From the NCBI RefSeq assembly GCF_000027125.1, contig NC_017626.1: 64,000 bases of DNA; one strand, written 5' to 3'. The notes beneath the pieces were generated by a model. It did not search any database. It was not told the origin of the DNA and was given only the letters and a program-made list of their open reading frames with translations. Positions 3,801 through 61,539 of this stretch are shown here, piece after piece. This DNA is from Escherichia coli 042 (GTDB taxonomy: Bacteria > Pseudomonadota > Gammaproteobacteria > Enterobacterales > Enterobacteriaceae). The position numbers and the translations under genes are program-made. Position 1 is the stretch's first letter. Each line of letters begins with the position of its first letter.

Positions 3801-4671
3801 GCATGTTCAATTTAATTACTTCTGTTTCTGATGTTTTACGATGAACCTGGCGTAAACCAGCTGTATCAGTCCATATAAATGAACCTTCAGTTAACTCTTC
3901 TAATGCGAATAATCGTTCTGCAATAGAGTCTTCATCGAGCTTAAATACTCTACCCGGAGAACCGTCCCCATATGCAATTGTTTCGAAGGATAATGAGCTG
4001 AGATTTAGGGCCTTACGCTCCCAATAATCGATCAGAGCATAAGCAAATACACCATCAGACAAAGTAATCTTTGGACCTCGACGAAATGAAAAGTGTCCTT
4101 TTTTTTCTTCAGCTAGTAAACCTAATTCACCAAGCATAGGTTCGGCAAAGTCTTCAGGAGTGGTTCCACTCGACCGCGGTGCATAACTACGCAAACATGT
4201 CTCAATATCTCGAGAAAGTGTCATTGGTGATAGTTTTCTCCCAGGACAACATTGCGTAGCATAGTCAGCTAAAAGAGCCCGGAGGTCTTCTTGTGTAAAA
4301 GATGAAGAAACAACATGGTTAAATAACCAGTACCAAGTTGTCGAGCGTTCTCCTTTTCCTGAAAGCTTCCAATGGCTAAGCCATGCTGTCGAGGGATGCT
4401 CTGAATAAGGATCAAGCCCATGTTCGCTAAATATTTTAATAGCAAATTCTGTAAGTTTGAATTTACCATCCTCTTCTCGCATTACTTCACAGGCGAGTGC
4501 CCAATGCTTGATTGATGCGACCATGTTTTTGCCTACACCAAATTTGGCAATGGCCTCATCATTCGAAAAAACCGATTTGTCAATAGAACCATCCGGCGCT
4601 GCATAACTGCAGGTTTTTTTTAACCACATTTGTCTTAGTGGGAAGGTCTCGTGACCTGAAAAGTGAGCCAT
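3781..4671 (-). CDS. Hypothetical protein (296 aa), first gene of three-gene module; possibly a DUF4007-type protein (from memory, unverified)
   Basis: Supplied ORF MAHFSGHETFPLRQMWLKK...; ATG at 4669-4671; 20-bp overlap with ATPase start suggests translational coupling. Confidence 0.5.
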   Translation of the reverse strand: MAHFSGHETFPLRQMWLKKTCSYAAPDGSIDKSVFSNDEAIAKFGVGKNMVASIKHWALACEVMREEDGKFKLTEFAIKIFSEHGLDPYSEHPSTAWLSHWKLSGKGERSTTWYWLFNHVVSSSFTQEDLRALLADYATQCCPGRKLSPMTLSRDIETCLRSYAPRSSGTTPEDFAEPMLGELGLLAEEKKGHFSFRRGPKITLSDGVFAYALIDYWERKALNLSSLSFETIAYGDGSPGRVFKLDEDSIAERLFALEELTEGSFIWTDTAGLRQVHRKTSETEVIKLNMLGKAYD

Positions 4672-5502: not shown

Positions 5503-6534
5503 TCATGTACTCTGACGTAATTCTATCTGGTAGTTGAATTGCACGATACGCGACTCTTCTGATTCATCATGATTATTATTCAATAGCCCAATCAGTAACT
5601 TACCCGTCTCTATCCCCATTTTTTTGTAGTCAATACGGATGGATGTCAAGGTTGGGTGTGTTTGATCGCAATTGTCTGAACCATCAAGACAAGCTACAGC
5701 GATATTTTCAGGAATTTTTAACAAACGCCGCTGGCACTCAAACATGATACCCAGCGCAATCTCTTCGTGGCTGCAAATCACAGCATCCAGCTCTGGTTGT
5801 CGCAGTAATATCTCGTTTAATGCGTAACGCCCCAATTGCAGACTTGCGGCATCCGGCATGGTGATAACAAGATCAGAGTTCTGGTAATGGCTCAACATTG
5901 CTTTATGCCAGCCGTTCAGTTGCTGACGTTGCAGGCGGTTGTCCATATGCGCACCGATAAATCCGATATTCTTATAACCCTGTTCCAGCAGATGTTCGGT
6001 CAGTTTATGTGATGCTTCAAAAAATGCTGTTTCGATGGTAATTTGAGCCGGACTGAAAGGGGAACCGACAACGTTAATGGTAGGTATATTTGTTTTCTCG
6101 AGTATCTGGTGAGTTTTATCAGCCAACTGAGAACCAAAAATAACTAACGCCGCCGGGTTGCCTTGAAGAAGCGTCATCAGAATTTCAGCTTCTTTGAGCT
6201 GATTATACTCATGACACCCAAGCAGTAGCTGGAATTCATTTTTATTAAGCACCTGCTGCAACGACTGCATAAAGCGGGAGCTGGCTTTATCTGTCAGGGA
6301 AGGAACCAGTACGGCGACTGTATCACTGTGACCAGATGCAAGGGCGCCAGCAGTTCTGTTGGGAATATAACCCAACTCTTCTACGGCCTGTTCTATCTTT
6401 TCCCTCAGCTTGTCAGATACCTGTTCCGGTGTTCTCAGCGCACGGGAAACGGTCATGGTTCCGACACCTGCAAAGTTAGCGACCTCCTGCAGCGTCACCC
6501 GTCCGGTACCACGGCGCTTACGTGTTTTTTCCAT
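5503..6534 (-). CDS. LacI/GalR-family transcriptional regulator
   Basis: N-terminal HTH VTLQEVANFAGVGTMTVSRAL followed by a periplasmic-binding-protein-like sugar-binding domain; 343 aa; divergent from the PTS genes. Confidence 0.85.
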   Translation of the reverse strand: MEKTRKRRGTGRVTLQEVANFAGVGTMTVSRALRTPEQVSDKLREKIEQAVEELGYIPNRTAGALASGHSDTVAVLVPSLTDKASSRFMQSLQQVLNKNEFQLLLGCHEYNQLKEAEILMTLLQGNPAALVIFGSQLADKTHQILEKTNIPTINVVGSPFSPAQITIETAFFEASHKLTEHLLEQGYKNIGFIGAHMDNRLQRQQLNGWHKAMLSHYQNSDLVITMPDAASLQLGRYALNEILLRQPELDAVICSHEEIALGIMFECQRRLLKIPENIAVACLDGSDNCDQTHPTLTSIRIDYKKMGIETGKLLIGLLNNNHDESEESRIVQFNYQIELRQST

Positions 6535-6804
6535 TTCGACTCCATGGATAATTACAACCAGCTGTTTTCATTACTTTTATTTCACCATTACTCTTTCCAG
6601 TTTTTGCCCACGGTAGCAAATATCCTGTTGCATTGTATATGCAGGAACCGAATATAGCCAAAGCATGGCGGCAGAGAAATGATAGCGCTATCACAAAGAT
6701 TGGTAGCGTTATCAGATAGCGCTATCAAATGCGACAATCATCACATTAATTAATGCGTAAAATATCTACTCTCCTGTTAATTATCATCGGGAGTTATCAG
6801 TAGC

Positions 6805-7248
6805 ATGTTAAAAAATCTATTAAATACAGAGGTCGTTCAGGTCGTGGAACAGGCCAAAGACTGGCGGGAAGCCGTGGCGATTTCATGCCGGCCGTTGATT
6901 GAAAACGGTTCTATCGAACCGCGTTATGTTGATGCGATCTATCGCTCGCACGACACTATCGGTCCGTACTATGTGGTTGGCCCTGGTATTGCGATGCCTC
7001 ATGCGCGCCCGGAAGAGGGAGCTAACAAGCTGTCATTAGCACTGACCCTGATCCCTTCAGGTGTGAATTTTGATGCCGATGAAAACGATCCAGTGAAATT
7101 ACTGATTGTGCTGGCTGCAACCGACAGTACCAGCCACATTGAAGCGATTTCTCAACTCGCCAAGTTATTCGATAACGAAAAAGACATACAGGCCATTTTG
7201 ATGGCCAAAACGACGCAGGACATTTTGTCTGTTATTGCGCGCTATTAA
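6805..7248 (+). CDS. PTS EIIA component, ascorbate (L-Asc) family
   Basis: 147 aa; GIAMPHAR phosphorylation-site-like motif; first gene of EIIA-EIIB-EIIC cluster. Confidence 0.75.
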   Translation: MLKNLLNTEVVQVVEQAKDWREAVAISCRPLIENGSIEPRYVDAIYRSHDTIGPYYVVGPGIAMPHARPEEGANKLSLALTLIPSGVNFDADENDPVKLLIVLAATDSTSHIEAISQLAKLFDNEKDIQAILMAKTTQDILSVIARY

Positions 7249-7263
7249 TCCAGAGGAACATTT

Positions 7264-7551
7264 ATGAAAATTACAGTGGTTTGCGGTAACGGCTTAGGCA
7301 CCAGCCTGATGATGGAAATGAGCATTAAAAGCATTTTGAAGGATTTGTCCGTCAGCGCTGATGTTGATCACGTCGACCTGGGCTCCGCGAAAGGGACGCC
7401 GAGTGATATCTATGTCGGCACCAAAGACATTGCCGAGCAGTTAGTCGCGCAGTCTGTCGCAGGCAAAATCGTCGCACTGGAAAATATGATTGATAAGAAA
7501 GCCATGAGAGAACGTTTATCCGTGGTATTAAACGAATTAGGCGCACTGTAA
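7264..7551 (+). CDS. PTS EIIB component, ascorbate family
   Basis: 95 aa; MKITVVCGNGLGTSLMM with active-site Cys typical of UlaB/SgaB-like EIIB. Confidence 0.8.
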   Translation: MKITVVCGNGLGTSLMMEMSIKSILKDLSVSADVDHVDLGSAKGTPSDIYVGTKDIAEQLVAQSVAGKIVALENMIDKKAMRERLSVVLNELGAL

Positions 7552-7563
7552 GCTGGGGGCGAT

Positions 7564-8820
7564 ATGGATTTCTTTCGTTTTTTGATGAGCGATGTACTTT
7601 CCGAACCCGCAGTGCTGGTCGGTTTAATCGCCCTGATTGGCCTGATTGCACAGAAAAAACCGGTAACCGAATGCATTAAAGGTACCGTCAAGACCATTAT
7701 GGGGTTTGTGATTTTAGGCGCAGGGGCGGGTTTAGTTGTGTCGTCACTGGGTGACTTCGCAAACATTTTCCAGCATGCCTTTGGTATTCAGGGTGTAGTG
7801 CCGAACAATGAAGCCATTGTTTCCGTAGCGCAGAAAAGCTTCGGGAAAGAAATGGCGATGATTATGTTCTTTGCGATGGTTATCAACATTATGATTGCCC
7901 GTTTCACACCGTGGAAATTTATCTTCCTGACCGGTCATCACACGTTGTTTATGTCGATGATGGTAGCGGTAATTCTGTCAACAGCAGGCATGACCGGCAT
8001 TACGCTTATAGCCGTTGGCTCTTTGGTTGTTGGCGTGGCAATGGTCTTTTTCCCGGCTATTGCGCATCCGTACATGAAGAAAGTGACCGGTTCTGATGAC
8101 GTTGCCATCGGCCACTTCTCAACATTATCTTATGTATTGGCTGGTTTCATCGGCAGCAAGTTTGGTAATAAAGAGCACTCGACTGAAGACATGAATGTGC
8201 CGAAAAGTCTGCTGTTCTTGCGCGACACGCCGGTTGCTATCTCTTTTACCATGAGCATAATTTTCCTGGTGACGTGCCTGTTTGCGGGTGCAGATGCGGT
8301 GAAAGAGCTTAGCGGTGGTAAAAACTGGTTCATGTTCTCTATCATGCAATCCATTACCTTCGCAGCTGGCGTGTACATCATTCTGCAGGGTGTGCGCATG
8401 GTGATTGCGGAGATTGTCCCGGCATTCAAAGGTATTTCAGACAAGCTGGTTCCGAATGCCAGACCTGCTCTCGATTGCCCGGTCGTCTTCCCTTACGCAC
8501 CTAACGCTGTACTGGTTGGTTTCCTGAGTAGCTTTGCTGCAGGTTTAATCGGTATGTTCACGTTGTATCTGCTGAACATGATCGTGATTATTCCTGGTGT
8601 GGTGCCGCACTTCTTCGTAGGTGCAGCTGCAGGGGTATTCGGTAATGCAACGGGTGGACGTCGTGGTGCGATTTTGGGTGCCTTCGCTCAAGGCTTGCTT
8701 ATTACCTTCCTGCCAGTATTCTTATTGCCGGTGCTGGGTGATATTGGTTTTGCTAACACCACCTTCAGTGATGCTGACTTTGGCGCACTGGGTATTTTGT
8801 TAGGGATTATCGTTCGCTAA
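7564..8820 (+). CDS. PTS EIIC permease, ascorbate family (UlaA/SgaT-like)
   Basis: 418 aa polytopic membrane protein immediately downstream of EIIA and EIIB. Confidence 0.8.
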   Translation: MDFFRFLMSDVLSEPAVLVGLIALIGLIAQKKPVTECIKGTVKTIMGFVILGAGAGLVVSSLGDFANIFQHAFGIQGVVPNNEAIVSVAQKSFGKEMAMIMFFAMVINIMIARFTPWKFIFLTGHHTLFMSMMVAVILSTAGMTGITLIAVGSLVVGVAMVFFPAIAHPYMKKVTGSDDVAIGHFSTLSYVLAGFIGSKFGNKEHSTEDMNVPKSLLFLRDTPVAISFTMSIIFLVTCLFAGADAVKELSGGKNWFMFSIMQSITFAAGVYIILQGVRMVIAEIVPAFKGISDKLVPNARPALDCPVVFPYAPNAVLVGFLSSFAAGLIGMFTLYLLNMIVIIPGVVPHFFVGAAAGVFGNATGGRRGAILGAFAQGLLITFLPVFLLPVLGDIGFANTTFSDADFGALGILLGIIVR

Positions 8821-8835
8821 TATTTTGATGACATT

Positions 8836-8892
8836 AATATCCTCCAGGATTTCAGGAACGTGGAGGATATTAATTCCTCTTATTTTCTCCAT
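8836..8892 (+). terminator. Rho-independent terminator after PTS EIIC
   Basis: Perfect 13-bp inverted repeat ttaatatcctcca / tggaggatattaa around a 14-nt loop, followed by T-rich run. Confidence 0.55.
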
Positions 8893-9066
8893 TTTTCTTT
8901 CTTCCAGTCAGGACTGCATCCGATTAATCGTAAGCGCTCCGAGAAGTACGTAGCGTAAGGATTATTTTACAGCTGAGAAGTTTCAGTGCAGCAGTTCATG
9001 CACACGGTTCGACGGCTAGTCATTGATCTTCATAATTACCTCGCGTAAAAAACGGGGTAAGGCCGC

Positions 9067-9496
<430 letters not shown>

Positions 9497-9537
9497 TGAC
9501 CAGTTTTTGTTGACCACTACAAATAAATAAAAGAGTT

Positions 9538-9612
9538 GCAGTGCTTGCTCGGTAAGAAAACAATGGAAGTTGAGATCCTCAAAGAAGCTGTGGAGTACAC
9601 CACTCTACAGTA
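9538..9612 (+). pseudogene. IS2-like (IS3 family) orfA C-terminal remnant
   Basis: Translation [22 protein letters not shown] matches C-terminus of IS2 InsC ([24 protein letters not shown]) at 15084-15449. Confidence 0.5.
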
Positions 9613-9741
9613 GTTGCGCAAATTTGGAGTGGACGATAATGTGATCGTCTATAAGGGCAACGCTATCATAGTCTTGTCCTGGCGGGTAAAAAAGCGCGCT
9701 TACCTTAACGATAAGCGCGCCGCTGTTCAGGCCTTGAGTGG

Positions 9742-10755
9742 TTATTCAATTCCTGTGGTGACTGTAAAAGTGCGCGTTTGCTGCGGTGCAACCTGAATCA
9801 GCGTGCCATTACGTTGCGCGGCAAGATACCCCTCAGGCCGACAGGTTGCAGGTAATGCAAAGGCGGCTACCTGTTGCTCTCCGTTATAAAGGATCCAGCG
9901 TGTCACATAATTTAGTTCAGCACTGTAGAAACGAGTAACAAACGTAGTGCCATCGGGAGAGATCATGCGAAACTCTGGCTGATCTGTATAAGCGTCCAGT
10001 TTGTCTGCAAAGAAGACAATTTCTGGATCATAAAATTCCGGTTGACTCAGCGTCGACAGAGAGGCTTCTCCCTGCATAATCCGTTGATTAAACGCCAGCC
10101 ACTGAGCGGTGGGATTAACATGCGAAGGCACTGATTCACGCAATCTTAATATTTCGTCCGGGATATTCTGGCTGAATGTAGCATTTGGTATATATGCATA
10201 ATTCATGTGGCACATATATTGTAGTGGCATATCTACAGAAGCCAGATTGGTTACGGCCATCTTAATATCGAACAGTGTAGAGGATTTGTGAAGGACCACT
10301 GTTGGTTGAGCCAGATAATGATGACCGAAACCCATTACATACTCGTAACGCCCGTTAAGGCGTAACATATCTCCGTCTAATTCCAGCCATGCTTCATCCA
10401 TCGCGGCACAGGCCATTTCACCGTGTAGCAGATGAGTATCTTCCGCAGATGGGCAGCCATTAGCCAGCAAACCTGAATGAAAAGCAAAACAGCCATAGGT
10501 CTCTATCACCTCTGTCGCCGGTTTAGGCTGGCGAAACATATTGCACATGGTGAGGCCGTGTCCATCAAATTGCGCATCCCAAATCATCTGCCCCATCCAG
10601 GGAAGAATAATCAAATGTCCACGACTGTTTGCAATTTTAAGCCCCTCGACACCGCTGTCATAGCGAAAAGACGTGACAGTAAAATCACTATTTTCCAGCA
10701 AGATACGAGGTTTCTCGCCAAAAAGCGCCCGCCACAAATTAATACGCGTACTCAT
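9742..10755 (-). CDS. deoX: DeoX-like protein of the deoK operon (putative deoxyribose mutarotase-type)
   Basis: 337-aa ORF at distal end of kinase-permease operon; assignment by synteny with the deoQKPX operon described in Salmonella and pathogenic E. coli. Confidence 0.5.
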   Translation of the reverse strand: MSTRINLWRALFGEKPRILLENSDFTVTSFRYDSGVEGLKIANSRGHLIILPWMGQMIWDAQFDGHGLTMCNMFRQPKPATEVIETYGCFAFHSGLLANGCPSAEDTHLLHGEMACAAMDEAWLELDGDMLRLNGRYEYVMGFGHHYLAQPTVVLHKSSTLFDIKMAVTNLASVDMPLQYMCHMNYAYIPNATFSQNIPDEILRLRESVPSHVNPTAQWLAFNQRIMQGEASLSTLSQPEFYDPEIVFFADKLDAYTDQPEFRMISPDGTTFVTRFYSAELNYVTRWILYNGEQQVAAFALPATCRPEGYLAAQRNGTLIQVAPQQTRTFTVTTGIE

Positions 10756-10766
10756 AACGGTTCTCC

Positions 10767-12083
10767 TCAGGACGCTGTGACTTCAGCCAGTGCGGTACGT
10801 ACTTTGCTTTCACGCCAGAAGTAGACTCCGACATAGACAAAGCAGAGCATAGAAACCAGGAATGAAAGCTGTAGTGAGTGGAACATATCTGCAATATATC
10901 CCTGAATTGCCGGAACCACCGCGGCACCGACAATAGCCATAACAATGACTGCTCCTGCCATTTCTGTATGTTCGTTATCAACTGTATCCAGTGTTCCTGC
11001 ATAGATCGTCGCCCAGCAAGGGCCAAACAAAACACTTACCAGGACGGCGACATAGACCGCGCTGAAACTTGGAGCCAGTGCAACATATGCCAGGAACAGC
11101 GCCCCTATAACGGAATAGAGAATCAATACTTTTTCCGGATTAAAACGCGTCATAAGGATGTTGGCTATAAACTTGCCAATAAAGAAGCAGGCAAAGCTAT
11201 AGACCATGAAGTTTGAAGCATCACGTTCGTTGATATCGCCCAACTCCAGCGCCAGACGGATGGTAAATGACCATACTGCGACCTGCATACCCACATAAAG
11301 GAACTGCGCCACAATACCGCGACGAAAGCGCGGATTTCTAGCCAGATAGCGCAGCGTATCCATTGCTGACGGGCGTTTATAGTGACTTGTCTGTGCCACT
11401 TTACAGGTTGGGAAGCGGGTTAAAAGGAACAACACCATGACCACAACCAGAATCATAATCATATACTTATACGGTTCAAGGGTGTTCTCTAACATCAGCA
11501 CCTTAAAGTTGTGAATTTGCTCGGCGTTCATTCCGGACATCTGCTTCTCAAGGCTTTCCCCCTCGGAGAAAACCAGATATTTGCCCAATAAAATACCAGA
11601 CGCAGCACCAATCGGATAAAAGGTCTGGCTGATATTGAGCCGCAATGTGGCATAGGCTTTTGGACCGATCATTGAACTGTATGTGTTCGCTGCAGTTTCA
11701 AGGAAACTCAGGCCAATCGCAATCGCAAAAATAGCTGCAAGGAACATAGTGTAGGTTGCCATATGCGAGGCAGGGAAAAAAAGTGTACAACCACCAATAT
11801 ACAGCGTCAGGCCAATTAAAATTGCCACCTTATAACTGGTCTTTTTAATCACAAGGGATGCTGGTATTGCAATTAAAAAATAACCTCCATAAAATGCGCT
11901 CTGCACCAATGCTGAAGCAAAGTTACTTAGCGAAAATACACTTTTGAATTGAGTGATTAATATGTCATTTAATGCAGCTGCGCATCCCCATAGCGGGAAT
12001 AAACACGATAACAAAATAAACTGGAACAAGGGAGTCTTATTCAGATACCCATCAGGCATCTGAATGATGTTTTTATCGTTCAT
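10767..12083 (-). CDS. deoP: MFS sugar permease, FucP-like (deoxyribose permease)
   Basis: 438 aa, ~12 predicted TM segments, L-fucose:H+ symporter-type; between kinase and deoX. Confidence 0.75.
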   Translation of the reverse strand: MNDKNIIQMPDGYLNKTPLFQFILLSCLFPLWGCAAALNDILITQFKSVFSLSNFASALVQSAFYGGYFLIAIPASLVIKKTSYKVAILIGLTLYIGGCTLFFPASHMATYTMFLAAIFAIAIGLSFLETAANTYSSMIGPKAYATLRLNISQTFYPIGAASGILLGKYLVFSEGESLEKQMSGMNAEQIHNFKVLMLENTLEPYKYMIMILVVVMVLFLLTRFPTCKVAQTSHYKRPSAMDTLRYLARNPRFRRGIVAQFLYVGMQVAVWSFTIRLALELGDINERDASNFMVYSFACFFIGKFIANILMTRFNPEKVLILYSVIGALFLAYVALAPSFSAVYVAVLVSVLFGPCWATIYAGTLDTVDNEHTEMAGAVIVMAIVGAAVVPAIQGYIADMFHSLQLSFLVSMLCFVYVGVYFWRESKVRTALAEVTAS

Positions 12084-12110
12084 AGTGCTACCTTTAACTG
12101 TGCAGGATGA

Positions 12111-13031
12111 TTATTCGTTTAAGGTTAAAAATTCATTAAATTGTTCAATACTCGGATAAGATGATTGCGTACCTTTCCCTGTGACGCTGAAAGCGGCAAA
12201 GAGAGCGGCTTTTTTCAAAGCGGCTTCAACATCACCGCTTTGAACATAATAATGGGAAAAGCAACCAATAAATGCGTCACCAGCGCCACTAGTATCAACA
12301 GCATTTACTTTGAATGCAGGAACATGGACTTCCTGATCGCGGGTCATCCATAATGCGCCTTTTTCGCTCATGGTAACAATAATATTGTTCAGCCCTTTAT
12401 CAACTAACGAACGTGCGGCCAAACGAATATGATCATAAGTATCAACCGACATACCGGTTAATATTTCCAGTTCTGTTTCATTCGGGATAAAGAAATCACA
12501 TTTGCAGGCATAAGACATATCTAACTCACGCAATGCCGGAGCCGGATTTAATAACACTTCAATACCATTTTTCTTACCAAACTCAATCGCGTGGTAAACT
12601 GTTTCCAGTTGAACTTCCAGTTGTAAAACGATCAATTTGCATTTTTTCAGATCTTCTGCAGCTCGATCGATATCTTCCGGGGAAAGAAATTTATTCGCTC
12701 CCTTAATTATTAATATACTATTGCTCGAGTTGGCATTAACAAAGATCGGTGCAACACCACTGCTGGTACAGGGGACCTTCTCAACATAAGTGGTATTAAT
12801 TCCCCATGATTCAAGATTACGAATAGTATTATCCGCAAAAATATCATCACCTACTTTAGTCAGCATCAGGACTTTTGAATTCAATTTAGCCGCCGCCACC
12901 GCTTGATTAGCACCTTTCCCACCACATCCGATTTTGAAGGCAGGTGCTTCCAGAGTTTCTCCTTCTTTAGGCATCTGATTAGTGTAAGTAATGAGATCCA
13001 CCATATTGGAACCAATAACTGCAATGTCCAT
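12111..13031 (-). CDS. deoK: Deoxyribokinase (ribokinase/PfkB family)
   Basis: MDIAVIGSNMVDL...GGKGANQAVAAAKL...DTSGAGDAF ribokinase signatures. Start placed at ATG 13029-13031 with GAGGT SD upstream (supplied ORF begins 27 bp earlier). Confidence 0.8.
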   Translation of the reverse strand: MDIAVIGSNMVDLITYTNQMPKEGETLEAPAFKIGCGGKGANQAVAAAKLNSKVLMLTKVGDDIFADNTIRNLESWGINTTYVEKVPCTSSGVAPIFVNANSSNSILIIKGANKFLSPEDIDRAAEDLKKCKLIVLQLEVQLETVYHAIEFGKKNGIEVLLNPAPALRELDMSYACKCDFFIPNETELEILTGMSVDTYDHIRLAARSLVDKGLNNIIVTMSEKGALWMTRDQEVHVPAFKVNAVDTSGAGDAFIGCFSHYYVQSGDVEAALKKAALFAAFSVTGKGTQSSYPSIEQFNEFLTLNE

Positions 13032-13333
13032 TTCACTACCTCTTATAAACTTTCGCATAACAATGGTATTTAAATAACATTAGCATGTTACTTTTGCATC
13101 ATTTGTGACTGAGATCGCGATTAGCACATCAACCCGATGTTTATTTAATAGACTTCCAGTCTCATCACTCAGGCCAACACTATCTAATCATAAGCAACCT
13201 AACAAGATTAGTGCCCAAAACTCAGCAGCCTATACCCTTTTCATTTCAAAGGGGCGGTCGTATAGTATGGTAATGAAAACAATGTTTACTAACGCCAAAA
13301 TGTTATTTTTATAACATTCTTACGGAGAGAGAG

Positions 13334-14119
13334 TTGATGGAAACGAAGCAAAAAGAGCGTATCCGACGTTTGATGGAACTGCTTAAGAAAACCGACAGAA
13401 TCCATTTGAAAGACGCAGCGCGAATGCTGGAAGTTTCTGTAATGACTATTCGTCGCGATCTCCATCAGGAAGATGAACCTCTGCCACTGACCCTACTGGG
13501 TGGCTATATTGTAATGGTGAATAAACCCGCGCCATCCATGCCAGTAATCCATGACGTTCCAAAAAATCATCGTGATGACTTACCTATTGCAATTCTGGCT
13601 GCCGGAATGGTTAATGAAAATGATCTGATCTTCTTTGATAATGGCCAGGAGATACCACTCGTTATAAGCATGATCCCGGATGCAATCACCTTCACCGGCA
13701 TCTGTTACTCACATCGCGTCTTTGTTGCGTTGAATGAAAAGCCTAATGTAACAGCAATACTTTGTGGTGGTACGTATCGTGCCAGAAGTGATGCTTTTTA
13801 CGATGCCAGTAACTCTTCGCCATTAGACTCTCTCAATCCGCGAAAAATATTTATTTCCGCCAGCGGTGTGCATAATCACTTTGGCGTCAGCTGGTTTAAC
13901 CCTGAAGATCTTGCCACTAAGCGTAAAGCGATGAACCGTGGACTACGGAAAATTTTGCTCGCCCGCCACGCGTTGTTCGATGAAGTGGCCTCTGCCAGCC
14001 TCGCACCGATCTCTGCATTTGACGTTCTGATTAGCGATCGTCCGTTACCGGCAGATTATGTTACGCACTGCCAGAATGGTTCTGTAAAGATCATTACACC
14101 TGATTCAGAAGACGAATGA
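13334..14119 (+). CDS. deoQ: DeoR-family transcriptional regulator
   Basis: N-terminal HTH ERIRRLMELLKKTDRIHLKDAARMLEVSVMTIRRDL and DeoR-type C-terminal domain; divergent from deoK. Confidence 0.8.
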   Translation: MMETKQKERIRRLMELLKKTDRIHLKDAARMLEVSVMTIRRDLHQEDEPLPLTLLGGYIVMVNKPAPSMPVIHDVPKNHRDDLPIAILAAGMVNENDLIFFDNGQEIPLVISMIPDAITFTGICYSHRVFVALNEKPNVTAILCGGTYRARSDAFYDASNSSPLDSLNPRKIFISASGVHNHFGVSWFNPEDLATKRKAMNRGLRKILLARHALFDEVASASLAPISAFDVLISDRPLPADYVTHCQNGSVKIITPDSEDE

Positions 14120-15083
14120 CTTACTGAAAAAACACCACAATCTTGTTAAACATCGTCGGGTTGGACTGATTACGTTGCACTTTCACCACATATTCCAGCT
14201 TATCTATTTGGCTTATCACCTACTCCAGACGCTGGCCATCCTTGACCAGTAGCCAGATATGGCTTTTGTCGCAGTCCTGAATCGGCAGGCAGAGAATGTC
14301 TTCAACGTTAAGAGCGCGACGGGCAAAAGCCCACAAAGGTGAGTCATTACACCCGGATGGTAAACAGGCACTTCCTTGTTGTAGAAGCCGTTATATTGTC
14401 CATAATGTCTGGGTTTTTAATGCATACTGGGTAACAACCGGACGAATCTTCGAATATCACTGGCGCTGCCAGCCGGTTTGAATTCATCTCACAACCCTGC
14501 ATAGAGCGAATCTCCTGCCTGCACGTCACTCCACTCCATGGTATCAACTTCACACTCTTTATCTGCGGCTAGCTTCAGCCACCAGATAAGCATCGACTAT
14601 GAAAGATGAGCCATGACAACATAACGTTGGTAACGCTCTGACGCCTTAATGGAAGATGCCTGCCACCATAGGGAATGTAAACGACTGAAGTGTGGCCTTT
14701 AATGCCGTGAACGGCTCATGGTCTCCTGGCACGGTTGCCGCCCCAACCTGTAACAACATTCCACAGTACAATGTCTGTCAGAGTCAGAGCCTCCCATGCT
14801 TGTTGTAGTAACTCTACCAGTTACGAACATCCTTCCTCAAAATTGTTGTCATATCTCGCATGGAAGAAAAGATCCTGGCTAAGGAGCAACACACAACGTA
14901 TTGCGGAACTTGCATATTTTTCCTGTAACTAGTGTATTACCACATATGGTAATAGCTACCTGTGTGGTTTCGCTGGATAGCAAGGGGATTTATAGACTGG
15001 CCCCCTGAATCTCCAGACAACCAATATCACTTAAATAAGTGATAGTCTTAATACTAGTTTTTAGACTAGTCATTGGAGAGCAG

Positions 15084-15449
15084 ATGATTGATGTCTTAGG
15101 ACCGGAGAAACGCAGACGGCGTACTACACAGGAAAAGATCGCTATTGTTCAGCAGAGTTTTGAACCGGGAATGACGGTCTCCCTTGTTGCCCGGCAACAC
15201 GGTGTGGCAGCCAGCCAGTTATTTCTCTGGCGCAAGCAATACCAGGAGGGAAGTCTTACTGCTGTGGCCGCAGGAGAGCAGGTCGTTCCTGCCTCTGAAC
15301 TTGCTGCTGCCATGAAGCAGATTAAAGAACTCCAGCGCCTGCTCGGCAAAAAAACGATGGAAAATGAACTCCTTAAAGAAGCCGTTGAATACGGGCGTGC
15401 AAAAAAGTGGATAGCGCACGCGCCCTTATTGCCCGGGGATGGGGAGTAA
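15084..15449 (+). CDS. insC: IS2 transposase OrfA (InsC)
   Basis: [26 protein letters not shown]...; supplied ORF starts at an upstream GTG. Confidence 0.9.
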
Positions 15450-16310
15450 GCTTAGTCAGCCGTTGTCTCCGGGTGTCGCGTGCGCAGTTGCACGTAATTC
15501 TCAGACGAACCGATGACTGGAAAGATGGTCGCCGCAGCCGTCACTCAGATGATACGGATGTGCTTCTCCGTATACACCATGTTATCGGAGAGCTGCCCAC
15601 GTATGGTTATCGTCGGGTATGGGCGCTGCTTCGCAGACAGGCCGAACTTGATGGTATGCCTGCGATCAATGCCAAACGTGTTTACCGGATCATGCGACAG
15701 AATGCGCTGTTGCTTGAGCGAAAAACCGCTGTACCGCCATCGAAACGGGCACATACTGGCAAAGTGGCCGTGAAAGAAAGCAATCAACGATGGTGCTCTG
15801 ACGGGTTCGAGTTCCGCTGTGATAACGGAGAAAAACTGCGAGTCACGTTCGCGCTGGACTGCTGTGACCGTGAGGCACTGCACTGGGCAGTCACTACGGG
15901 CGGCTTCGACAGTGAAACAGTACAGGACGTCATGCTGGGAGCGGTGGAACGCCGCTTCGGCAACGAGCTTCCGGCGTCTCCAGTAGAGTGGCTGACGGAT
16001 AATGGTTCATGCTACCGGGCTAATGAAACACGGCAGTTTGCCCGGATGTTGGGGCTTGAACCGAAGAACACGGCGGTGCGGAGTCCGGAGAGTAACGGCA
16101 TAGCAGAGAGCTTCGTGAAAACGATAAAGCGTGACTACATCAGTATCATGCCTAAACCAGACGGGTTAACGGCAGCAAAGAACCTTGCAGAGGCGTTCGA
16201 GCATTATAACGAATGGCATCCGCATAGTGCACTGGGTTATCGCTCGCCACGGGAATATCTGCGGCAGCAGGCCAGTAATGGGTTAAGTGATAACAGGTGT
16301 CTGGAAATAT
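15407..16310 (+). CDS. insD: IS2 transposase OrfB (InsD), 3' end altered by nested IS insertion
   Basis: DDE transposase; native ...RCLEI stop replaced, supplied ORF reads through to 16381 inside the IS66-family element. Confidence 0.8.
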
Positions 16311-16395
16311 GTAAGCGTAAACTGACCGCCGTATGTAGCCATCAGACGAGAATTGGTAACTTAGACGCCCATCTGATATAGACGGACATCTAAGT

Positions 16396-16821
16396 ATGGA
16401 ATTACAGGACTGGCGAAAAGAACCTCGTAAAAACTATTCGAATGAATTCAAACTTCGTATGGTGGAACTGGCATCACAACCTGGAGCTTGTGTTGCACAG
16501 ATTGCACGTGAAAATGGCGTCAATGATAATGTTATTTTCAAATGGCTCAGGCTCTGGCAGAACGAAGGGCGTGTTTCGCGGCGTCTTCCGGTAACGACCT
16601 CTTCTGACACTGGCGTTGAATTATTACCTGTAGAAATAACGCCGGATGAGCAGAAAGAACCTGTGGCGGCCATTGCGCCGTCTTTATCCACTTCCACTCA
16701 GACCAGAGTCAGTGCCAGTTCCTGCAAGGTGGAATTCCGTCACGGTAACATGACGCTGGAAAATCCATCGCCAGAGCTGCTCACGGTGTTGATCCGTGAA
16801 CTGACCGGGAGGGGAAGATGA
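16396..16821 (+). CDS. tnpA: IS66-family TnpA (Orf1)
   Basis: YSNEFKLRMVELASQPGACVAQIARENGVNDNVIFKWL. Confidence 0.85.
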   Translation: MELQDWRKEPRKNYSNEFKLRMVELASQPGACVAQIARENGVNDNVIFKWLRLWQNEGRVSRRLPVTTSSDTGVELLPVEITPDEQKEPVAAIAPSLSTSTQTRVSASSCKVEFRHGNMTLENPSPELLTVLIRELTGRGR

Positions 16822-17168
16822 TCTCACTCCCATCAGGTACCCGTATCTGGCTCGTTGCCGGCGTTACCGATATGCGTAAATCCTTCAACGGACTGGGAGA
16901 ACAGGTACAACATGTGCTGAATGATAATCCCTTCTCCGGTCACCTGTTTATCTTCCGTGGCCGACGGGGTGACACCGTCAAAATTCTTTGGGCTGATGCT
17001 GATGGTCTGTGCCTGTTCACCAAACGCCTGGAGGAAGGCCAGTTTATCTGGCCTGCGGTACGTGACGGCAAGGTATCCATTACCCGCTCGCAACTGGCAA
17101 TGCTCCTCGATAAGCTGGACTGGCGTCAGCCAAAAACATCCAGCCGTAACTCACTGACAATGTTGTAA
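16818..17168 (+). CDS. tnpB: IS66-family TnpB (Orf2)
   Basis: MISLPSGTRIWLVAGVTDMRKSFNGL...; overlaps tnpA stop by 4 bp. Confidence 0.85.
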   Translation: MISLPSGTRIWLVAGVTDMRKSFNGLGEQVQHVLNDNPFSGHLFIFRGRRGDTVKILWADADGLCLFTKRLEEGQFIWPAVRDGKVSITRSQLAMLLDKLDWRQPKTSSRNSLTML

Positions 17169-17198
17169 AAAACTCCTGACCGCATTATAAAAACGGTC

Positions 17199-18812
17199 AT
17201 GAGTCAGAAATACCTCATTCGCATCGCAGAGCTGGAAAGGTTGCTCTCTGAGCAGGCTGAAGCCCTCCGTCAGAAAGACCAGCAACTGAGTCTGGTTGAA
17301 GAGACGGAAGCCTTCCTGCGCTCTGCACTGACACGTGCCGAAGAAAAGATCGAAGAAGATGAACGGGAAATAGAACATCTGCGGGCTCAGATAGAAAAAC
17401 TGCGCCGGATGCTGTTCGGTACCCGTTCTGAAAAACTGCGTCGTGAAGTTGAACTGGCTGAGGCTCTGCTGAAACAACGTGAACAGGACAGCGATCGTTA
17501 CAGTGGGCGGGAAGACGATCCTCAGGTTCCCCGCCAGTTGCGACAGTCGCGCCATCGTCGTCCGTTACCGGCACACCTTCCCCGTGAAATACACCGCCTG
17601 GAGCCAGAAGAAAGCTGTTGCCCGGAGTGTGGCGGTGAGCTGGATTATCTGGGGGAAGTCAGCGCTGAACAGCTGGAACTGGTGAGCAGTGCCCTGAAAG
17701 TGATCCGCACAGAACGGGTAAAAAAAGCCTGTACAAAATGTGACTGTATTGTTGAAGCACCGGCGCCGTCCCGCCCGATAGAGCGTGGTATCGCGGGCCC
17801 CGGATTACTTGCCCGCGTGTTAACGGGAAAATACTGCGAACATCTGCCACTGTATCGTCAGAGTGAAATCTTTGCCCGCCAGGGTGTCGAACTGAGCCGG
17901 GCCTTACTCTCCAACTGGGTTGACGCGTGCTGCCAGTTAATGACACCGGTGAATGATGCCCTGTACCGTTATGTAATGAACACCCGCAAGGTTCACACTG
18001 ATGACACACCGGTAAAGGTACTGGCACCGGGTCAGAAAAAGGCGAAAACAGGGCGTATCTGGACGTATGTCCGGGATGATCGCAATGTGGGTTCGTCATC
18101 TCCTCCAGCGGTCTGGTTCGCGTACTCGCCGAACCGGCAGGGGAAACACCCGGAGCAACACCTCCGCCCCTTCCGGGGTATCCTGCAGGCGGATGCGTTC
18201 ACAGGTTACGACAGGTTGTTCAGTGCAGAACGTGAAGGTGGTGCACTGACAGAAGTTGCGTGCTGGGCCCATGCCCGGCGAAAAATCCACGATGTATACA
18301 TCAGCAGCAAAAGTGCGACGGCAGAAGAAGCCCTGAAGCGAATCAGTGAACTGTACGCCATCGAGGATGAAATACGGGGATTACCGGAGTCAGAGCGTCT
18401 TGCCGTCAGGCAGCAGCGAAGCAAAGTGTTACTGACGTCGCTGCATGAATGGATGGTGGAGAAGAATGGTACGCTGTCGAAAAAATCCAGACTGGGCGAA
18501 GCGTTCAGCTATGTACTGAATCAGTGGGATGCCCTCTGTTATTACAGTGATGACGGTCTGGCGGAGGCGGATAATAATGCTGCGGAAAGAGCGCTTCGTG
18601 CAGTCTGTCTCGGAAAGAAAAACTTTATGTTCTTTGGCAGCGATCACGGCGGCGAGCGTGGAGCACTGTTGTACGGGCTGATCGGCACCTGCCGTCTGAA
18701 CGGTATCGATCCGGAAGCGTATCTGCGCCATATCCTGAGCGTACTGCCGGAATGGCCTTCCAACCGAGTTGATGAACTCCTGCCATGGAACGTAGTACTC
18801 ACCAATAAATAA
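17199..18812 (+). CDS. tnpC: IS66-family transposase TnpC (537 aa)
   Basis: N-terminal coiled coil, CxxC...CxxC zinc motif (CCPECGGEL...CTKCDC), DDE-type core. Confidence 0.85.
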   Translation: MSQKYLIRIAELERLLSEQAEALRQKDQQLSLVEETEAFLRSALTRAEEKIEEDEREIEHLRAQIEKLRRMLFGTRSEKLRREVELAEALLKQREQDSDRYSGREDDPQVPRQLRQSRHRRPLPAHLPREIHRLEPEESCCPECGGELDYLGEVSAEQLELVSSALKVIRTERVKKACTKCDCIVEAPAPSRPIERGIAGPGLLARVLTGKYCEHLPLYRQSEIFARQGVELSRALLSNWVDACCQLMTPVNDALYRYVMNTRKVHTDDTPVKVLAPGQKKAKTGRIWTYVRDDRNVGSSSPPAVWFAYSPNRQGKHPEQHLRPFRGILQADAFTGYDRLFSAEREGGALTEVACWAHARRKIHDVYISSKSATAEEALKRISELYAIEDEIRGLPESERLAVRQQRSKVLLTSLHEWMVEKNGTLSKKSRLGEAFSYVLNQWDALCYYSDDGLAEADNNAAERALRAVCLGKKNFMFFGSDHGGERGALLYGLIGTCRLNGIDPEAYLRHILSVLPEWPSNRVDELLPWNVVLTNK

Positions 18813-19502: not shown

Positions 19503-19962
19503 TTACTGGCTAGTTGTTGCTTCCTGAGAAGACTGATAGCGTACCGAGGTTTTGAAATAGCTCCAGAAGTCGTACACTGGCTCAGTAGAACAATATAGTT
19601 TGGAACGCATTACCGCACCTTCCCAGCCACTCCAGAAAATAGCCGCCAGTTGTGTATTATTCATATTTGAACTTATTTCGCCTGAAGATAACGCGTCGGA
19701 CAGGCAGGCCGCAACAAGTGCCTGCCAGCTCTCAAGAATATTCTGTAGTACTTTAATGAAGGATTGGGGAAGCCCCGGACTCTCCTGCATCATATTTCCA
19801 ACCAGGCAGCCGCGGGTAAAATTGTATTTTTTAATCCCCTCACAGGCATCATTGATGAAATTTTCCAGACGTACCATTGGTGTGCAGGATGATTCATGTA
19901 GATGTTTTTTGAGGTTATGCTCGAAGAAACTGTCATAGGCGTTCAGAACGGTCTGAGCATAA
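19503..19962 (-). pseudogene. TetR-family regulator, C-terminal part (gene split by IS100)
   Basis: Reading frame runs from the IS100 junction (…AQTVLNAYDSFFEHNLKKH…) to stop at 19503; joins in-frame with N-terminal part at 21916-22119 once IS100 and one repeat copy are removed. Confidence 0.75.
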
Positions 19963-22119
<2,157 letters not shown>

Positions 22120-36963: not shown

Positions 36964-37001
36964 ATTCCAGCTAAAAGCCCGGCAAGCCGGGCGTTAACAC
37001 A

Positions 37002-40362
<3,361 letters not shown>

Positions 40363-40366
<4 letters not shown>

Positions 40367-58215: not shown

Positions 58216-58235
58216 TAATCAGGTCACTCTCCTTC

Positions 58236-61170: not shown

Positions 61171-61539
61171 GTGTCAGACACACTTTCCGGGACAACGCAT
61201 CCCGATGACAATGACGACCATCCCTGGTGGGGACTACCCTGCACAGTGACGCCCTGTTTCGGCGCCCGTCTGGTGCAGGAGGGTAACCGGTTGCATTACC
61301 TTGCCGACCGTGCCGGTATCAGAGGCCGGTTCAGAGATGCGGATGCGTACCCTCTGGACCAGGCCTTTCCGCTGCTGATGAAACAACTGGAATTAATGCT
61401 CACCAGTGGTGAACTGAATCCCCGCCATCAGCATACCGTGACACTGTATGCGAAGGGGCTGACCTGTGAAGCCGACACCCTCGGCTCCTGTGGTTACGTT
61501 TATCTGGCTGTTTATCCGACACCTGAAACGAAAAAGTAA
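61171..61539 (+). CDS. cbeA: Type IV antitoxin CbeA (YeeU-like)
   Basis: GTG start at 61171 after [55 protein letters not shown]... Confidence 0.85.

What the first reader, a model, noticed from the sequence alone, without database searches (positions are those of the whole stretch)
9742..14119. Accessory deoxyribose utilisation operon (deoQ / deoK-deoP-deoX)
A ribokinase-family kinase, a FucP-like MFS permease and a third gene sit divergently from a DeoR regulator. This matches the deoxyribose operon described in Salmonella and pathogenic E. coli, an accessory trait linked to gut colonisation. Here it is embedded among IS scars.
Basis: partly seen in the sequence, partly recalled or inferred. 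Interest (0 to 1): 0.35.

Follow-up and report, generated by a model that had tools for sequence, protein, structure and literature searches.

The report
Known deoxyribose-utilisation operon (deoQKPX) of E. coli
This is the already described accessory gene cluster that lets some E. coli strains grow on deoxyribose released from degraded DNA; it is intact and ordinary, and the one new detail is that gene scars at its edges suggest it came from an Escherichia-like chromosome, not from Salmonella as the literature says.

Summary
Window 9742-14119 holds four intact genes: deoX/deoM (9742-10755, -), deoP (10767-12083, -) and deoK (12111-13031, -), transcribed divergently from deoQ (13337-14119, +).

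All four proteins are 100% identical to those of E. coli 55989, one of the strains whose DeoK was published. They are 95/96/82/84% identical (K/P/X/Q) to the syntenic Salmonella enterica locus.

About 29% of complete E. coli genomes (1593 of 5426) carry the cluster. RefSeq mislabels two of the genes as rbsK and fucP.

The likely mechanism:
- DeoP imports deoxyribose.
- DeoX, which has a mutarotase fold, interconverts its ring forms.
- DeoK phosphorylates it.
- The core-genome enzyme DeoC cleaves the product.
- DeoQ represses through conserved TGTTA-N6-TAACA palindromes, and there is a CRP-like site.

One added finding: the module (9608-14361) still carries a uhpA 5' scar and an ilvN 3' scar from its original chromosomal site. 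The ilvN scar is 90% identical to E. coli ilvN but 71-83% identical to other genera. This argues for an Escherichia-lineage origin.

Verdict: already known, low interest.

The parts
9067..9321 (-). Truncated IS66-family TnpA (orf1) fragment; the left IS scar
   Evidence: 84-aa ORF matching PF01527 HTH_Tnp_1 at 6.8e-13. It is homologous to the N-terminal part of the intact 141-aa IS66 TnpA at 16396-16821. RefSeq annotates it as 'transposase'.
9608..9664 (-). uhpA 5' remnant (codons about 3-21, with a 1-nt deletion); a scar of the original chromosomal site
   Evidence: tblastn against UhpA gives 79% identity over 19 aa. The nucleotide comparison with K-12 and Salmonella uhpA starts shows the 1-nt deletion.
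9665..9741 (-). Sequence homologous to the E. coli K-12 ilvN-uhpA intergenic region, containing the terminator hairpin (9693-9721) that now ends the deoKPX transcript
   Evidence: Terminator-like site with a 12-bp stem, 7 GC pairs and a T run. The sequence aligns base for base with the K-12 75-nt ilvN-uhpA spacer and with the Salmonella deoX-uhpA spacer.
9742..10755 (-). deoX (also called deoM): a DUF4432 protein with a galactose-mutarotase-like fold; putative deoxyribose mutarotase
   Evidence: PF14486 at 5e-15. The AF2 model has pLDDT 82.5 and pTM 0.85. Its best PDB match is 3ty1, a putative aldose 1-epimerase (TM 0.75, E 1e-13), followed by GalM enzymes. It is 82% identical to the syntenic S. 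diarizonae gene and 83% identical to the main S. enterica cluster. One homolog is named 'deoxyribose mutarotase' by NCBI.
10767..12083 (-). deoP: an MFS permease of the FucP family; putative deoxyribose:H+ symporter
   Evidence: TIGR00885 at 3e-96, but the E. coli FucP model PRK10133 scores below its cut-off. It is 35.7% identical to E. coli FucP (3o7q) and 96% identical to the Salmonella syntenic gene. The residues aligned to FucP D46 and E135 are conserved; the residue aligned to N162 is Tyr (alignment).
12111..13031 (-). deoK: deoxyribokinase, a 306-aa PfkB/ribokinase-family enzyme
   Evidence: PF00294 at 5e-63. It is 95-97% identical to the Salmonella and Citrobacter syntenic genes and 36.5% identical to E. 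coli RbsK. Met10 aligns with RbsK Asn14, and the GAGD motif is conserved. UniRef names members of its 90% cluster 'Deoxyribokinase'. The SD sequence AAGAGG lies upstream of the ATG at 13031.
13032..13336 (.). 305-bp divergent regulatory region. It holds palindromes 13301-13316 (TGTTATTTTTATAACA), 13064-13079 (TGGTATTTAAATAACA) and 13075-13090 (TAACATTAGCATGTTA) as candidate DeoQ operators, a CRP-like site at 13104-13119, and a candidate deoQ -10 (TATAGT) at 13261-13266.
   Evidence: Repeat and palindrome search; motif coordinates; promoter scan. In an alignment of this spacer from 44 sequences (the window plus 43 species loci), these blocks match the window base in at least 90% of sequences, while the middle of the spacer is not conserved.
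13337..14119 (+). deoQ: DeoR-family repressor (260 aa)
   Evidence: PF08220 plus PF00455. The nearest NCBIfam model is DeoR PRK10681, at 230.2 bits against a cut-off of 244. It is 35.7% identical to the E. coli DeoR C-terminal domain (7l6l) and 84% identical to the Salmonella syntenic gene.
14124..14359 (-). ilvN 3' remnant (codons 18-96, with one frameshift and one internal stop); a scar of the original chromosomal site, of Escherichia type
   Evidence: tblastn against IlvN. It is 90.2% nt identical to K-12 ilvN and 71-83% identical to ilvN of 34 other Enterobacteriaceae. It shares 16 of 18 K-12-specific sites, and the bootstrap for K-12 as nearest neighbour is 1.0. RefSeq annotates it as an 'acetolactate synthase small subunit' pseudogene.
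14993..16390 (+). IS2-like (IS3 family) element, annotated incomplete at its 3' end and directly followed by ISEc23 (16396-18812); the right IS scar
   Evidence: ORFs at 15039-15449 and 15407-16381. RefSeq annotates an 'IS3 family transposase, incomplete, missing C-terminus' followed by IS66 tnpA/tnpB/ISEc23. Collinearity with strain 55989 ends at 14993. The terminal-repeat sequence is visible.

Best explanation
Window 9608-14361 is the accessory deoQKPX module of E. coli. It is a self-contained uptake, activation and regulation cassette for 2-deoxy-D-ribose, carried here in a leuX-associated genomic island.

Proposed mechanism:
1. DeoP, a FucP-family MFS proton symporter, imports deoxyribose.
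2. DeoX/DeoM, which has a galactose-mutarotase fold, speeds interconversion of the sugar's anomeric and ring forms so that the form the kinase uses is available.
3. DeoK, a PfkB kinase with Met10 where ribokinase has the 2'-OH-contacting Asn14, makes deoxyribose 5-phosphate.
4. The core-genome aldolase DeoC, which lies outside the window, splits it into glyceraldehyde 3-phosphate and acetaldehyde.
5. DeoQ represses deoKPX, and probably its own gene, by binding DeoR-like TGTTA-N6-TAACA palindromes at both ends of the 305-bp spacer. A CRP-like site upstream of deoK provides catabolite control.

What is shown here: gene content, integrity, orthology, fold and motif conservation. What is inferred from the Salmonella and E. 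coli literature: substrate, inducer, operator occupancy and phenotype.
For: - Four intact genes lie at the stated coordinates, with the expected families.
- All four proteins are 100% identical to those of E. coli 55989 and O104:H4. DeoK of 55989, AL862 and CFT073 is the published E. coli DeoK (PMC6452873).
- The deoQ<>deoK-deoP-deoX order and orientation is kept in about 65 species. In Salmonella it is flanked by ilvN and uhpA.
- DeoK is 95-97% identical to the Salmonella and Citrobacter proteins but 36.5% identical to RbsK. Met10 aligns with RbsK Asn14.
- The DeoX model has a mutarotase fold.
- The palindromes and the CRP-like site are the conserved blocks of the spacer across 44 sequences.
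- A terminator follows deoX.
Against: - No phenotype or expression data exist for this sequence.
- The primary papers (Tourneux 2000, Christensen 2003, Bernier-Febreau 2004, Martinez-Jehanne 2009, Assairi 2004) are not held in the library. Operator positions, the Met10 mutagenesis result and the DeoM mutarotase assay therefore rest on my recollection or on secondary citations.
- Residues 88-115 of the DeoX model are low-confidence.
- The promoter scan found no more sites than chance in the region as a whole (14 against 10.9 +/- 3.2).
- deoC is not in the window, and its presence in this genome was not checked.
Confidence: 0.93

Rival explanations
1. The cluster is what RefSeq names it: a second ribokinase (rbsK) with an L-fucose permease (fucP) and an aldose epimerase. 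That would make it a ribose or fucose utilisation cluster, not a deoxyribose one.
For: The broad TIGRFAM equivalog models pass their cut-offs (ribokinase TIGR02152, 369 > 299.65; fucP TIGR00885, 323 > 280.4). PGAP labels the genes rbsK and fucP in every genome examined. Salmonella DeoK also phosphorylates ribose and supports growth on it (PMC13432705).
Against: - The E. coli-type models for RbsK and FucP fail their cut-offs.
- Identity to E. coli RbsK and FucP is only about 36%.
- There are no rbsDACB or fucAOIKUR neighbours.
- Orthology and synteny tie the cluster to the Salmonella deo locus.
- Met10 replaces the ribose 2'-OH ligand Asn14.
- The position equivalent to FucP N162 is Tyr.
- UniRef names members of the cluster 'Deoxyribokinase'.
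Confidence: 0.03
2. The cluster is intact in sequence but phenotypically silent in this strain. For example, it could be permanently repressed, or uncoupled from deoC, as a decaying passenger of an island riddled with IS elements.
For: The surroundings are heavily degraded: IS fragments, ilvN and uhpA scars, a TetR gene split by IS100, and virK with an internal stop in the near-identical genome. A metagenomic E. coli-type copy carries a 108-nt deletion in deoX.
Against: - All four ORFs, the spacer and the terminator are intact, and the proteins are identical to those of strain 55989.
- The module is retained at 97.8-100% identity in the sampled genomes among the 1593 that carry it. This suggests purifying selection.
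Confidence: 0.04
3. On origin only: the module was imported into E. coli from Salmonella enterica, as the literature proposes.
For: The gene order and the exact junctions (1 nt between the ilvN and deoQ stops; a 74-75-nt spacer before uhpA) are the same as in Salmonella. The literature states this origin (PMC5382810).
Against: - DNA identity to S. enterica subsp. diarizonae is only 76-84%, no closer than to Citrobacter.
- DeoX is 83% identical to the main S. enterica cluster. No lineage fills the gap between 97% and 84% among 5.8 billion proteins.
- The co-transferred ilvN scar is 90.2% identical to E. coli ilvN but 77.1% identical to Salmonella ilvN. It shares 16 of 18 E. coli-specific sites.
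Confidence: 0.1

Closest known systems
E. coli deoK operon (deoQ / deoK-deoP-deoX) of pathogenic and some commensal strains (AL862 PAI II, 55989, CFT073, Nissle 1917, NCTC 86)
   Same: It is the same locus. The four proteins are 100% identical to those of strain 55989. It sits next to the vpe PTS operon, as described for NCTC 86 ROD 40 and the LAC island. It is present in about 29% of complete E. coli genomes.
   Different: Nothing differs in the genes. Here the island is the leuX-associated one (tRNA-Leu plus integrase in the near-identical genome CV839-06) rather than pheV as in AL862. An IS2-like element sits about 870 bp downstream of deoQ that is absent in 55989.
Salmonella enterica deoQKPX regulon (deoxyribokinase DeoK, permease DeoP, DeoX/DeoM, repressor DeoQ), located between ilvN and uhpA
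   Same: The genes, order, orientation and junction geometry are identical, and the spacer length is similar (305 vs 324 bp). The spacer blocks holding TGTTA/TAACA palindromes and a CRP-like site are conserved. Identities for K/P/X/Q are 95/96/82/84%.
   Different: DNA identity is only 76-84%. The Salmonella locus is chromosomal-core, lying between intact ilvN and uhpA. The E. coli copy is a 4.75-kb excised module with truncated ilvN and uhpA inside a tRNA island.
E. coli ribokinase RbsK, L-fucose permease FucP and repressor DeoR (the paralogous 'proper' families)
   Same: The folds and catalytic machinery are the same: a PfkB kinase with the GAGD motif, an MFS transporter with the residues equivalent to FucP D46 and E135, and a DeoR HTH plus sensor domain. 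The operator half-sites resemble the DeoR TGTTA...TAACA type.
   Different: Identity is about 36% to each. All three score below the curated cut-offs of the E. coli-type models. The genomic context differs. Substrate-determining positions are changed: DeoK Met10 against RbsK Asn14, and DeoP Tyr at the position of FucP N162.
Galactose mutarotase / aldose 1-epimerase superfamily (GalM; DUF4432 structure 3ty1)
   Same: The predicted DeoX fold matches 3ty1 (TM 0.75) and GalM-type mutarotases.
   Different: Sequence identity is 10-17%. Sequence search finds no PDB relative, and no catalytic residues were mapped here.

Membership tests
deoQKPX deoxyribose-utilisation locus | Four genes arranged as deoQ divergent from a deoK-deoP-deoX operon | tested here: met
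   ORFs and strands. The same arrangement occurs in Salmonella L024 and in about 65 species.
deoQKPX deoxyribose-utilisation locus | Orthology to the Salmonella and E. coli reference proteins | tested here: met
   100% identity to E. coli 55989. Identity to S. enterica subsp. diarizonae is 95/96/82/84% for K/P/X/Q. DeoK is 95.8% identical to the S. salamae protein named 'Deoxyribokinase' and DeoP is 95.9% identical to the S. enterica protein. S. Typhimurium LT2 and S. Typhi sequences themselves were not retrieved.
deoQKPX deoxyribose-utilisation locus | DeoK is a 306-aa PfkB kinase about 35% identical to RbsK, with Met10 in place of the ribose-specific Asn14 (criterion recalled from Tourneux et al. 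2000; paper not held) | tested here: met
   306 aa; 36.5% identity to E. coli RbsK. Met10 aligns with Asn14 and the GAGD motif is conserved.
deoQKPX deoxyribose-utilisation locus | Palindromic DeoQ operators and catabolite control in the deoQ-deoK spacer | tested here: inconclusive
   Conserved TGTTA-N6-TAACA palindromes and a CRP-like site are present. Protein binding cannot be tested here, and the published footprints could not be read.
deoQKPX deoxyribose-utilisation locus | Confers growth on 2-deoxy-D-ribose (requires DeoC elsewhere in the genome) | not testable with these tools
   This is a phenotype. deoC is not in the window, and its presence in the source genome was not checked.
Ribokinase RbsK proper (rbsDACBKR operon) | Reaches the curated cut-off of the E. 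coli-type RbsK model and sits in an rbs operon | tested here: not met
   NF008353 scores 251.9 against a cut-off of 341. There are no rbs neighbours.
L-fucose permease FucP proper (fuc regulon) | Reaches the curated cut-off of the E. coli-type FucP model and sits with fuc catabolic genes | tested here: not met
   NF007524 scores 284.5 against a cut-off of 427. Identity to 3o7q is 35.7%. There are no fuc neighbours.
DeoR repressor proper (deoCABD regulator) | Reaches the curated cut-off of NF007961 | tested here: not met
   230.2 against a cut-off of 244. Identity to the DeoR C-terminal domain is 35.7%. It is a paralog within the same family.
Aldose 1-epimerase / mutarotase fold (DeoM) | Galactose-mutarotase-like beta-sandwich fold | tested here: met
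   AF2 model with pLDDT 82.5. Foldseek finds 3ty1 (TM 0.75) and GalM structures at E 1e-13 to 1e-6. Enzymatic activity is not testable here.

The most novel reading that the evidence does not exclude
The E. coli deoQKPX module may not be a Salmonella import. It may be a relocated relic of an Escherichia-lineage chromosome in which the locus sat at its ancestral enterobacterial position between ilvN and uhpA. A 4.75-kb piece (uhpA' - deoXPK - deoQ - 'ilvN) was captured into tRNA-associated islands. The native site is now a nucleotide-exact empty site in every complete E. coli genome examined. The trait would then survive in E. coli only as a mobile accessory copy.
Probability: 0.6. Interest if true: 0.3.

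Novelty: already known. Interest (0 to 1): 0.15.

Why it matters
The locus itself is textbook accessory metabolism, a nutritional fitness factor for gut colonisation. Finding it here adds nothing new beyond placing this window in a leuX island of an EAEC/ETEC-like E. coli lineage.

Two practical points follow.
- RefSeq/PGAP systematically names deoK 'rbsK' and deoP 'fucP' in the many E. coli genomes that carry the locus. This hides the trait from annotation-based metabolic models.
- The ilvN and uhpA scars give a cheap, testable handle on where the E. coli copy came from. They contradict the usual 'acquired from Salmonella' statement. They would illustrate how an ancestral core locus can be lost from its site yet persist in a species as an island-borne accessory module.

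Tried and rejected
- I tried to read the primary papers: Tourneux 2000 (PMC94358), Christensen 2003 (PMC225019), Bernier-Febreau 2004 (PMC517565), Martinez-Jehanne 2009 (PMC2663165) and 2012 (PMC3434581). None is held. Details from them are marked as recalled.
- A PDB sequence search for DeoX found nothing, even at E <= 1. Structure prediction plus Foldseek was used instead.
- An Rfam scan of 8800-15100 gave no match.
- A Pfam scan of the small ORFs in the unassigned stretches 9354-9563 and 14296-14932 gave nothing credible. A first attempt on raw frames failed because of stop codons.
- I looked for a sampled lineage intermediate between the E. coli and Salmonella/Citrobacter versions. The DeoX search shows a gap from 97% to 84%. 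The single 89% hit is an E. coli copy with a 108-nt deletion. The 84% hit is a Pseudocitrobacter-like contig.
- I looked for any E. coli genome with deoQ next to intact ilvN-ilvB, using a chimeric query. None was found in 5426 genomes.
- The short left flank (134 nt) does not discriminate between origins: 85.5% identity to K-12 against 83.9% to Salmonella.
- I considered gene conversion as the cause of the E. coli-like ilvN scar. I rejected it because the 24 mismatches are spread evenly, with no tract of near-identity.

Full report
**Observation**

The ORF list for 7000-17500 shows three co-directional minus-strand genes and one divergent plus-strand gene:
- 9742-10755 (337 aa, minus strand);
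- 10767-12083 (438 aa, minus strand);
- 12111-13058 (minus strand);
- 13334-14119 (plus strand).

The finding's coordinates are the two outer stop codons. RefSeq annotation of identical DNA, and conservation in other species, place the kinase start at the ATG at 13031 (306 aa, preceded by AAGAGG). They place the regulator start at the ATG at 13337 (260 aa).

Family scans give a PfkB/ribokinase-like kinase, a FucP-like MFS permease, a DUF4432 protein and a DeoR-family regulator with HTH_DeoR plus DeoRC domains. A strong terminator-like hairpin (12-bp stem, T run) lies 21 nt beyond the deoX stop, at 9693-9721.

**Identity of the locus**

A 5.2-kb query around the cluster is 100% identical to many E. 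coli chromosomes, including 55989 and the O104:H4 outbreak lineage. All four proteins are 100% identical to those of 55989. [quoted passage not shown] AL862, 55989, and CFT073' are the published E. coli deoxyribokinases (PMC6452873).

In total, 1593 of 5426 complete E. coli genomes (29%) carry at least 80% of window 9322-14990. Identities among the listed sample run from 97.8% to 100%.

Reviews and genome papers describe the deoK operon in this setting:
- it lies in tRNA-linked islands;
- it sits next to the vpe PTS operon;
- it confers deoxyribose use and promotes murine gut colonisation (PMC7545054; PMC6455142; PMC5382810).

Nissle 1917 'harbors deoQKPX', whereas K-12 lacks it and cannot grow on 2-deoxy-D-ribose (PMC7924626).

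A scan of one genome per bacterial species with DeoK returned 80 loci. In about 65 of them the same deoQ<>deoK-deoP-deoX arrangement is present. These include Citrobacter, Salmonella enterica subsp. diarizonae, Raoultella/Klebsiella, Leclercia, Edwardsiella, Providencia, Aeromonas and Pasteurellaceae. Bacillus methanolicus has deoP, deoX and deoK in a different order and no detected deoQ.

| Comparison | Result |
|---|---|
| K/P/X/Q vs the Salmonella locus | 95/96/82/84% identity |
| DeoK vs the S. salamae protein UniRef names 'Deoxyribokinase' | 95.8% |
| DeoK vs E. coli RbsK (1gqt) | 36.5% |
| DeoP vs E. coli FucP (3o7q) | 35.7% |
| DeoQ vs the E. coli DeoR sensor domain (7l6l) | 35.7% |
| E. 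coli-type RbsK NCBIfam model | 251.9 bits, cut-off 341 |
| E. coli-type FucP NCBIfam model | 284.5 bits, cut-off 427 |
| E. coli-type DeoR NCBIfam model | 230.2 bits, cut-off 244 |

Only the broad TIGRFAM ribokinase and fucP models pass their cut-offs. That is why PGAP labels these genes rbsK and fucP. No rbs or fuc genes are nearby. The kinase therefore does not group with RbsK proper, nor the permease with FucP proper.

**How it most likely works**

The known route is kinase plus aldolase. DeoK makes deoxyribose 5-phosphate, and DeoC cleaves it to glyceraldehyde 3-phosphate and acetaldehyde (PMC6365646). In Salmonella, deleting deoK abolishes growth on deoxyribose (PMC13432705).

- **DeoK.** It keeps the PfkB GAGD catalytic motif. 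It has Met10 aligned with RbsK Asn14. I recall this position from Tourneux et al. 2000 as the residue that discriminates deoxyribose from ribose; that paper could not be read here.
- **DeoP.** It keeps the residues aligned with FucP D46 and E135, the proton-coupling pair in my recollection of the FucP structure paper. It has Tyr where FucP has the substrate-contacting N162. This fits a proton symporter with altered specificity.
- **DeoX.** It has no sequence relative in the PDB. An AlphaFold model built from 34 orthologs (pLDDT 82.5, pTM 0.85; residues 88-115 poorly defined) matches the DUF4432 'putative aldose 1-epimerase' 3ty1 (TM 0.75) and then bona fide galactose mutarotases. This agrees with the name 'deoxyribose mutarotase (deoM)' used in the literature and by NCBI for a homolog.
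- **DeoC.** It is not in the window, so its contribution is inferred.

**Regulation**

The 305-bp spacer was aligned with the equivalent spacer of 43 species. Conservation of at least 90% is confined to two blocks: the roughly 100 bp next to deoK (13032-13128), and a block next to deoQ (13299-13318). These blocks contain:
- a perfect palindrome, TGTTATTTTTATAACA (13301-13316), 20 bp upstream of the deoQ ATG;
- TGGTATTTAAATAACA (13064-13079);
- the overlapping inverse palindrome TAACATTAGCATGTTA (13075-13090);
- a CRP-like site, TGTGACTGAGATCGCG (13104-13119, 8 of 10 consensus positions).

The half-sites are those of the E. coli DeoR operator as I recall it (TGTTAGAA/TTCTAACA). DeoQ is reported to recognise palindromes (PMC2222622).

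A partly conserved TATAGT at 13261-13266, with TTTTCA 17 bp upstream, is a candidate deoQ promoter. If the CRP site acts as a class II site, the deoK start would fall near 13070, under the two overlapping palindromes. This last point is inference only.

My recollection of Christensen et al. 2003 fits the anatomy but was not verified here. It reports three DeoQ operators, catabolite repression of deoKPX only, and additional repression by DeoR.

**Surroundings**

Window 1-34485 is 99.95% identical to E. coli CV839-06. In that genome the region lies downstream of tRNA-Leu (leuX) and an integrase. No tRNA lies in the window itself.

To the left of the cluster:
- the vpe operon: a LacI-type regulator at 5503-6534, and PTS IIA/IIB/IIC at 6805-8820;
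- a truncated IS66-family TnpA at 9067-9321.

To the right of the cluster:
- 630 unassigned bases (14362-14992);
- an IS2-like element from about 14993, annotated as missing its C-terminus and directly followed by ISEc23.

'Embedded among IS scars' is correct.

**An addition: scars of the original site**

In Salmonella the order is ilvB-ilvN, 1 nt, deoQ (convergent), deoK-deoP-deoX, a 74-nt spacer, then uhpA. Many other Enterobacteriaceae also have ilvN and/or uhpA flanking the locus.

The window retains both neighbours as fragments:
- codons 18-96 of ilvN, with one frameshift and one stop, at 14124-14359, still 1 nt from the deoQ stop;
- beyond the deoX stop, the complete spacer with its terminator (9665-9741), followed by the first roughly 20 codons of uhpA carrying a 1-nt deletion (9608-9664).

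E. coli K-12 has the exact empty site. Its ilvN TAA is followed directly by the CCGCTCAAGG... sequence that follows the deoX stop in the module and in Salmonella. With a chimeric query (deoQ + scar + K-12 ilvN/ilvB), no E. coli genome out of 5426 has deoQ beside an intact ilvBN.

The ilvN scar is 90.2% identical to K-12 ilvN. It is 71-83% identical to ilvN of 34 other Enterobacteriaceae, and 77.1% identical to Salmonella ilvN. Further points:
- it shares 16 of the 18 sites at which K-12 departs from the majority of the other genera;
- K-12 is its nearest neighbour in 1000 of 1000 bootstrap resamples;
- the 24 mismatches are spread evenly, so recent gene conversion is unlikely.

The deo genes themselves are only 70-84% identical in DNA to any other species. 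K-12 ilvN+uhpA is about 84% identical to 19 of those same species, and the two measures are rank-correlated (rho 0.44-0.61).

A search of 5.8 billion proteins shows no lineage between the E. coli DeoX clusters (97-98%) and the next relatives (84% and below; the main Salmonella enterica cluster is at 83%). The two apparent exceptions were a deleted E. coli copy and a Pseudocitrobacter-like contig.

The simplest reading is that the module was cut out of an Escherichia-type chromosome that had the locus at the ancestral ilvN-uhpA position. [quoted passage not shown]

Three caveats apply:
- the inference rests mainly on 245 nt;
- the left flank is too conserved to discriminate (85.5% against 83.9%);
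- other Escherichia species could not be compared with these tools.

I could not check whether the scars were already noted in Bernier-Febreau et al. 2004.

**Verdict**

The finding is real and correctly interpreted, and it is already known. It is a member of the deoQKPX family by gene content, orthology, synteny and diagnostic residues. Operator binding and phenotype remain untested. Interest is low (0.15). The only mildly novel element is the evidence on origin.

Noticed in passing
window 1-4671 (- strand): 1-463, 456-3788, 3781-4671: These are the SspD (cut by the window start), SspC (1110 aa) and SspB genes of an Ssp-type DNA phosphorothioation defence system. PADLOC scores are SspC 1451 bits, SspB 381 bits and SspD 269 bits. 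RefSeq calls them PAPS reductase family, hypothetical and DUF4007. In the near-identical genome, a sensor histidine kinase and a 614-aa hypothetical protein lie between them and the island integrase.
   Followed up: partly
window 5503-8820: A LacI-family regulator with PTS IIA, IIB and IIC (ascorbate-type) genes. This is the 'vpe' carbohydrate permease operon that the literature reports next to the deoK operon in several E. coli islands.
   Followed up: partly
window 10767-13031, and every E. coli RefSeq genome examined: PGAP names deoK 'rbsK ribokinase' and deoP 'fucP L-fucose:H+ symporter'. The broad TIGRFAM equivalogs pass their cut-offs, although the E. coli-type RbsK and FucP models fail theirs. 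This looks like a systematic misannotation that hides the deoxyribose trait.
   Followed up: yes
window 12111-13031: DeoK scores higher against a mammalian-type ribokinase (PDB 5byc/2fv7, which I recall as human ribokinase; 40% identity, 216 bits) than against E. coli RbsK (36.5%, 170 bits).
   Followed up: no
window 14362-14992: 630 bp between the ilvN scar and the IS2-like element have no annotated feature, no Pfam hit on their small ORFs and no Rfam hit. The stretch is shared with strain 55989.
   Followed up: partly
window about 19503-22119: A TetR/AcrR regulator gene is split in two by an IS100 (IS21 family, istA/istB) insertion, according to annotation of the near-identical genome. In strain 55989 the TetR gene is intact.
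   Followed up: no
window about 27177-31074: A cluster of lpxM (a second lipid A myristoyltransferase), virK, capU and a polysaccharide deacetylase, resembling the shf locus of enteroaggregative and Shigella virulence plasmids. Here it is chromosomal. virK carries an internal stop in the near-identical genome CV839-06.
   Followed up: no
window about 33354-40884, 55370-58216 and 61172-62004: The island also carries a fecIRABCDE ferric citrate uptake operon (GC 0.55-0.62, well above its neighbours), an Ag43/Cah autotransporter adhesin, and a YeeU/CbtA toxin-antitoxin pair with antirestriction and JAB-domain genes. A second IS2-like copy lies at 62145-63462.
   Followed up: no
L086 (metagenome contig ERZ28658899 scaffold_24862), 277-1179: An E. 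coli-type deoX that is 100% identical to the window except for a 108-nt in-frame internal deletion (300 aa instead of 337). This is an example of decay of the locus in a natural population.
   Followed up: partly
L057-L064, L066 (Proteus species) and L053 (Providencia stuartii): These loci have deoK (74-82% identity) and a deoQ-like regulator (52-56% identity) but no deoP or deoX. About 900 bp, rather than about 300 bp, separate the regulator from the kinase. This suggests a different gene in between and a variant architecture.
   Followed up: no
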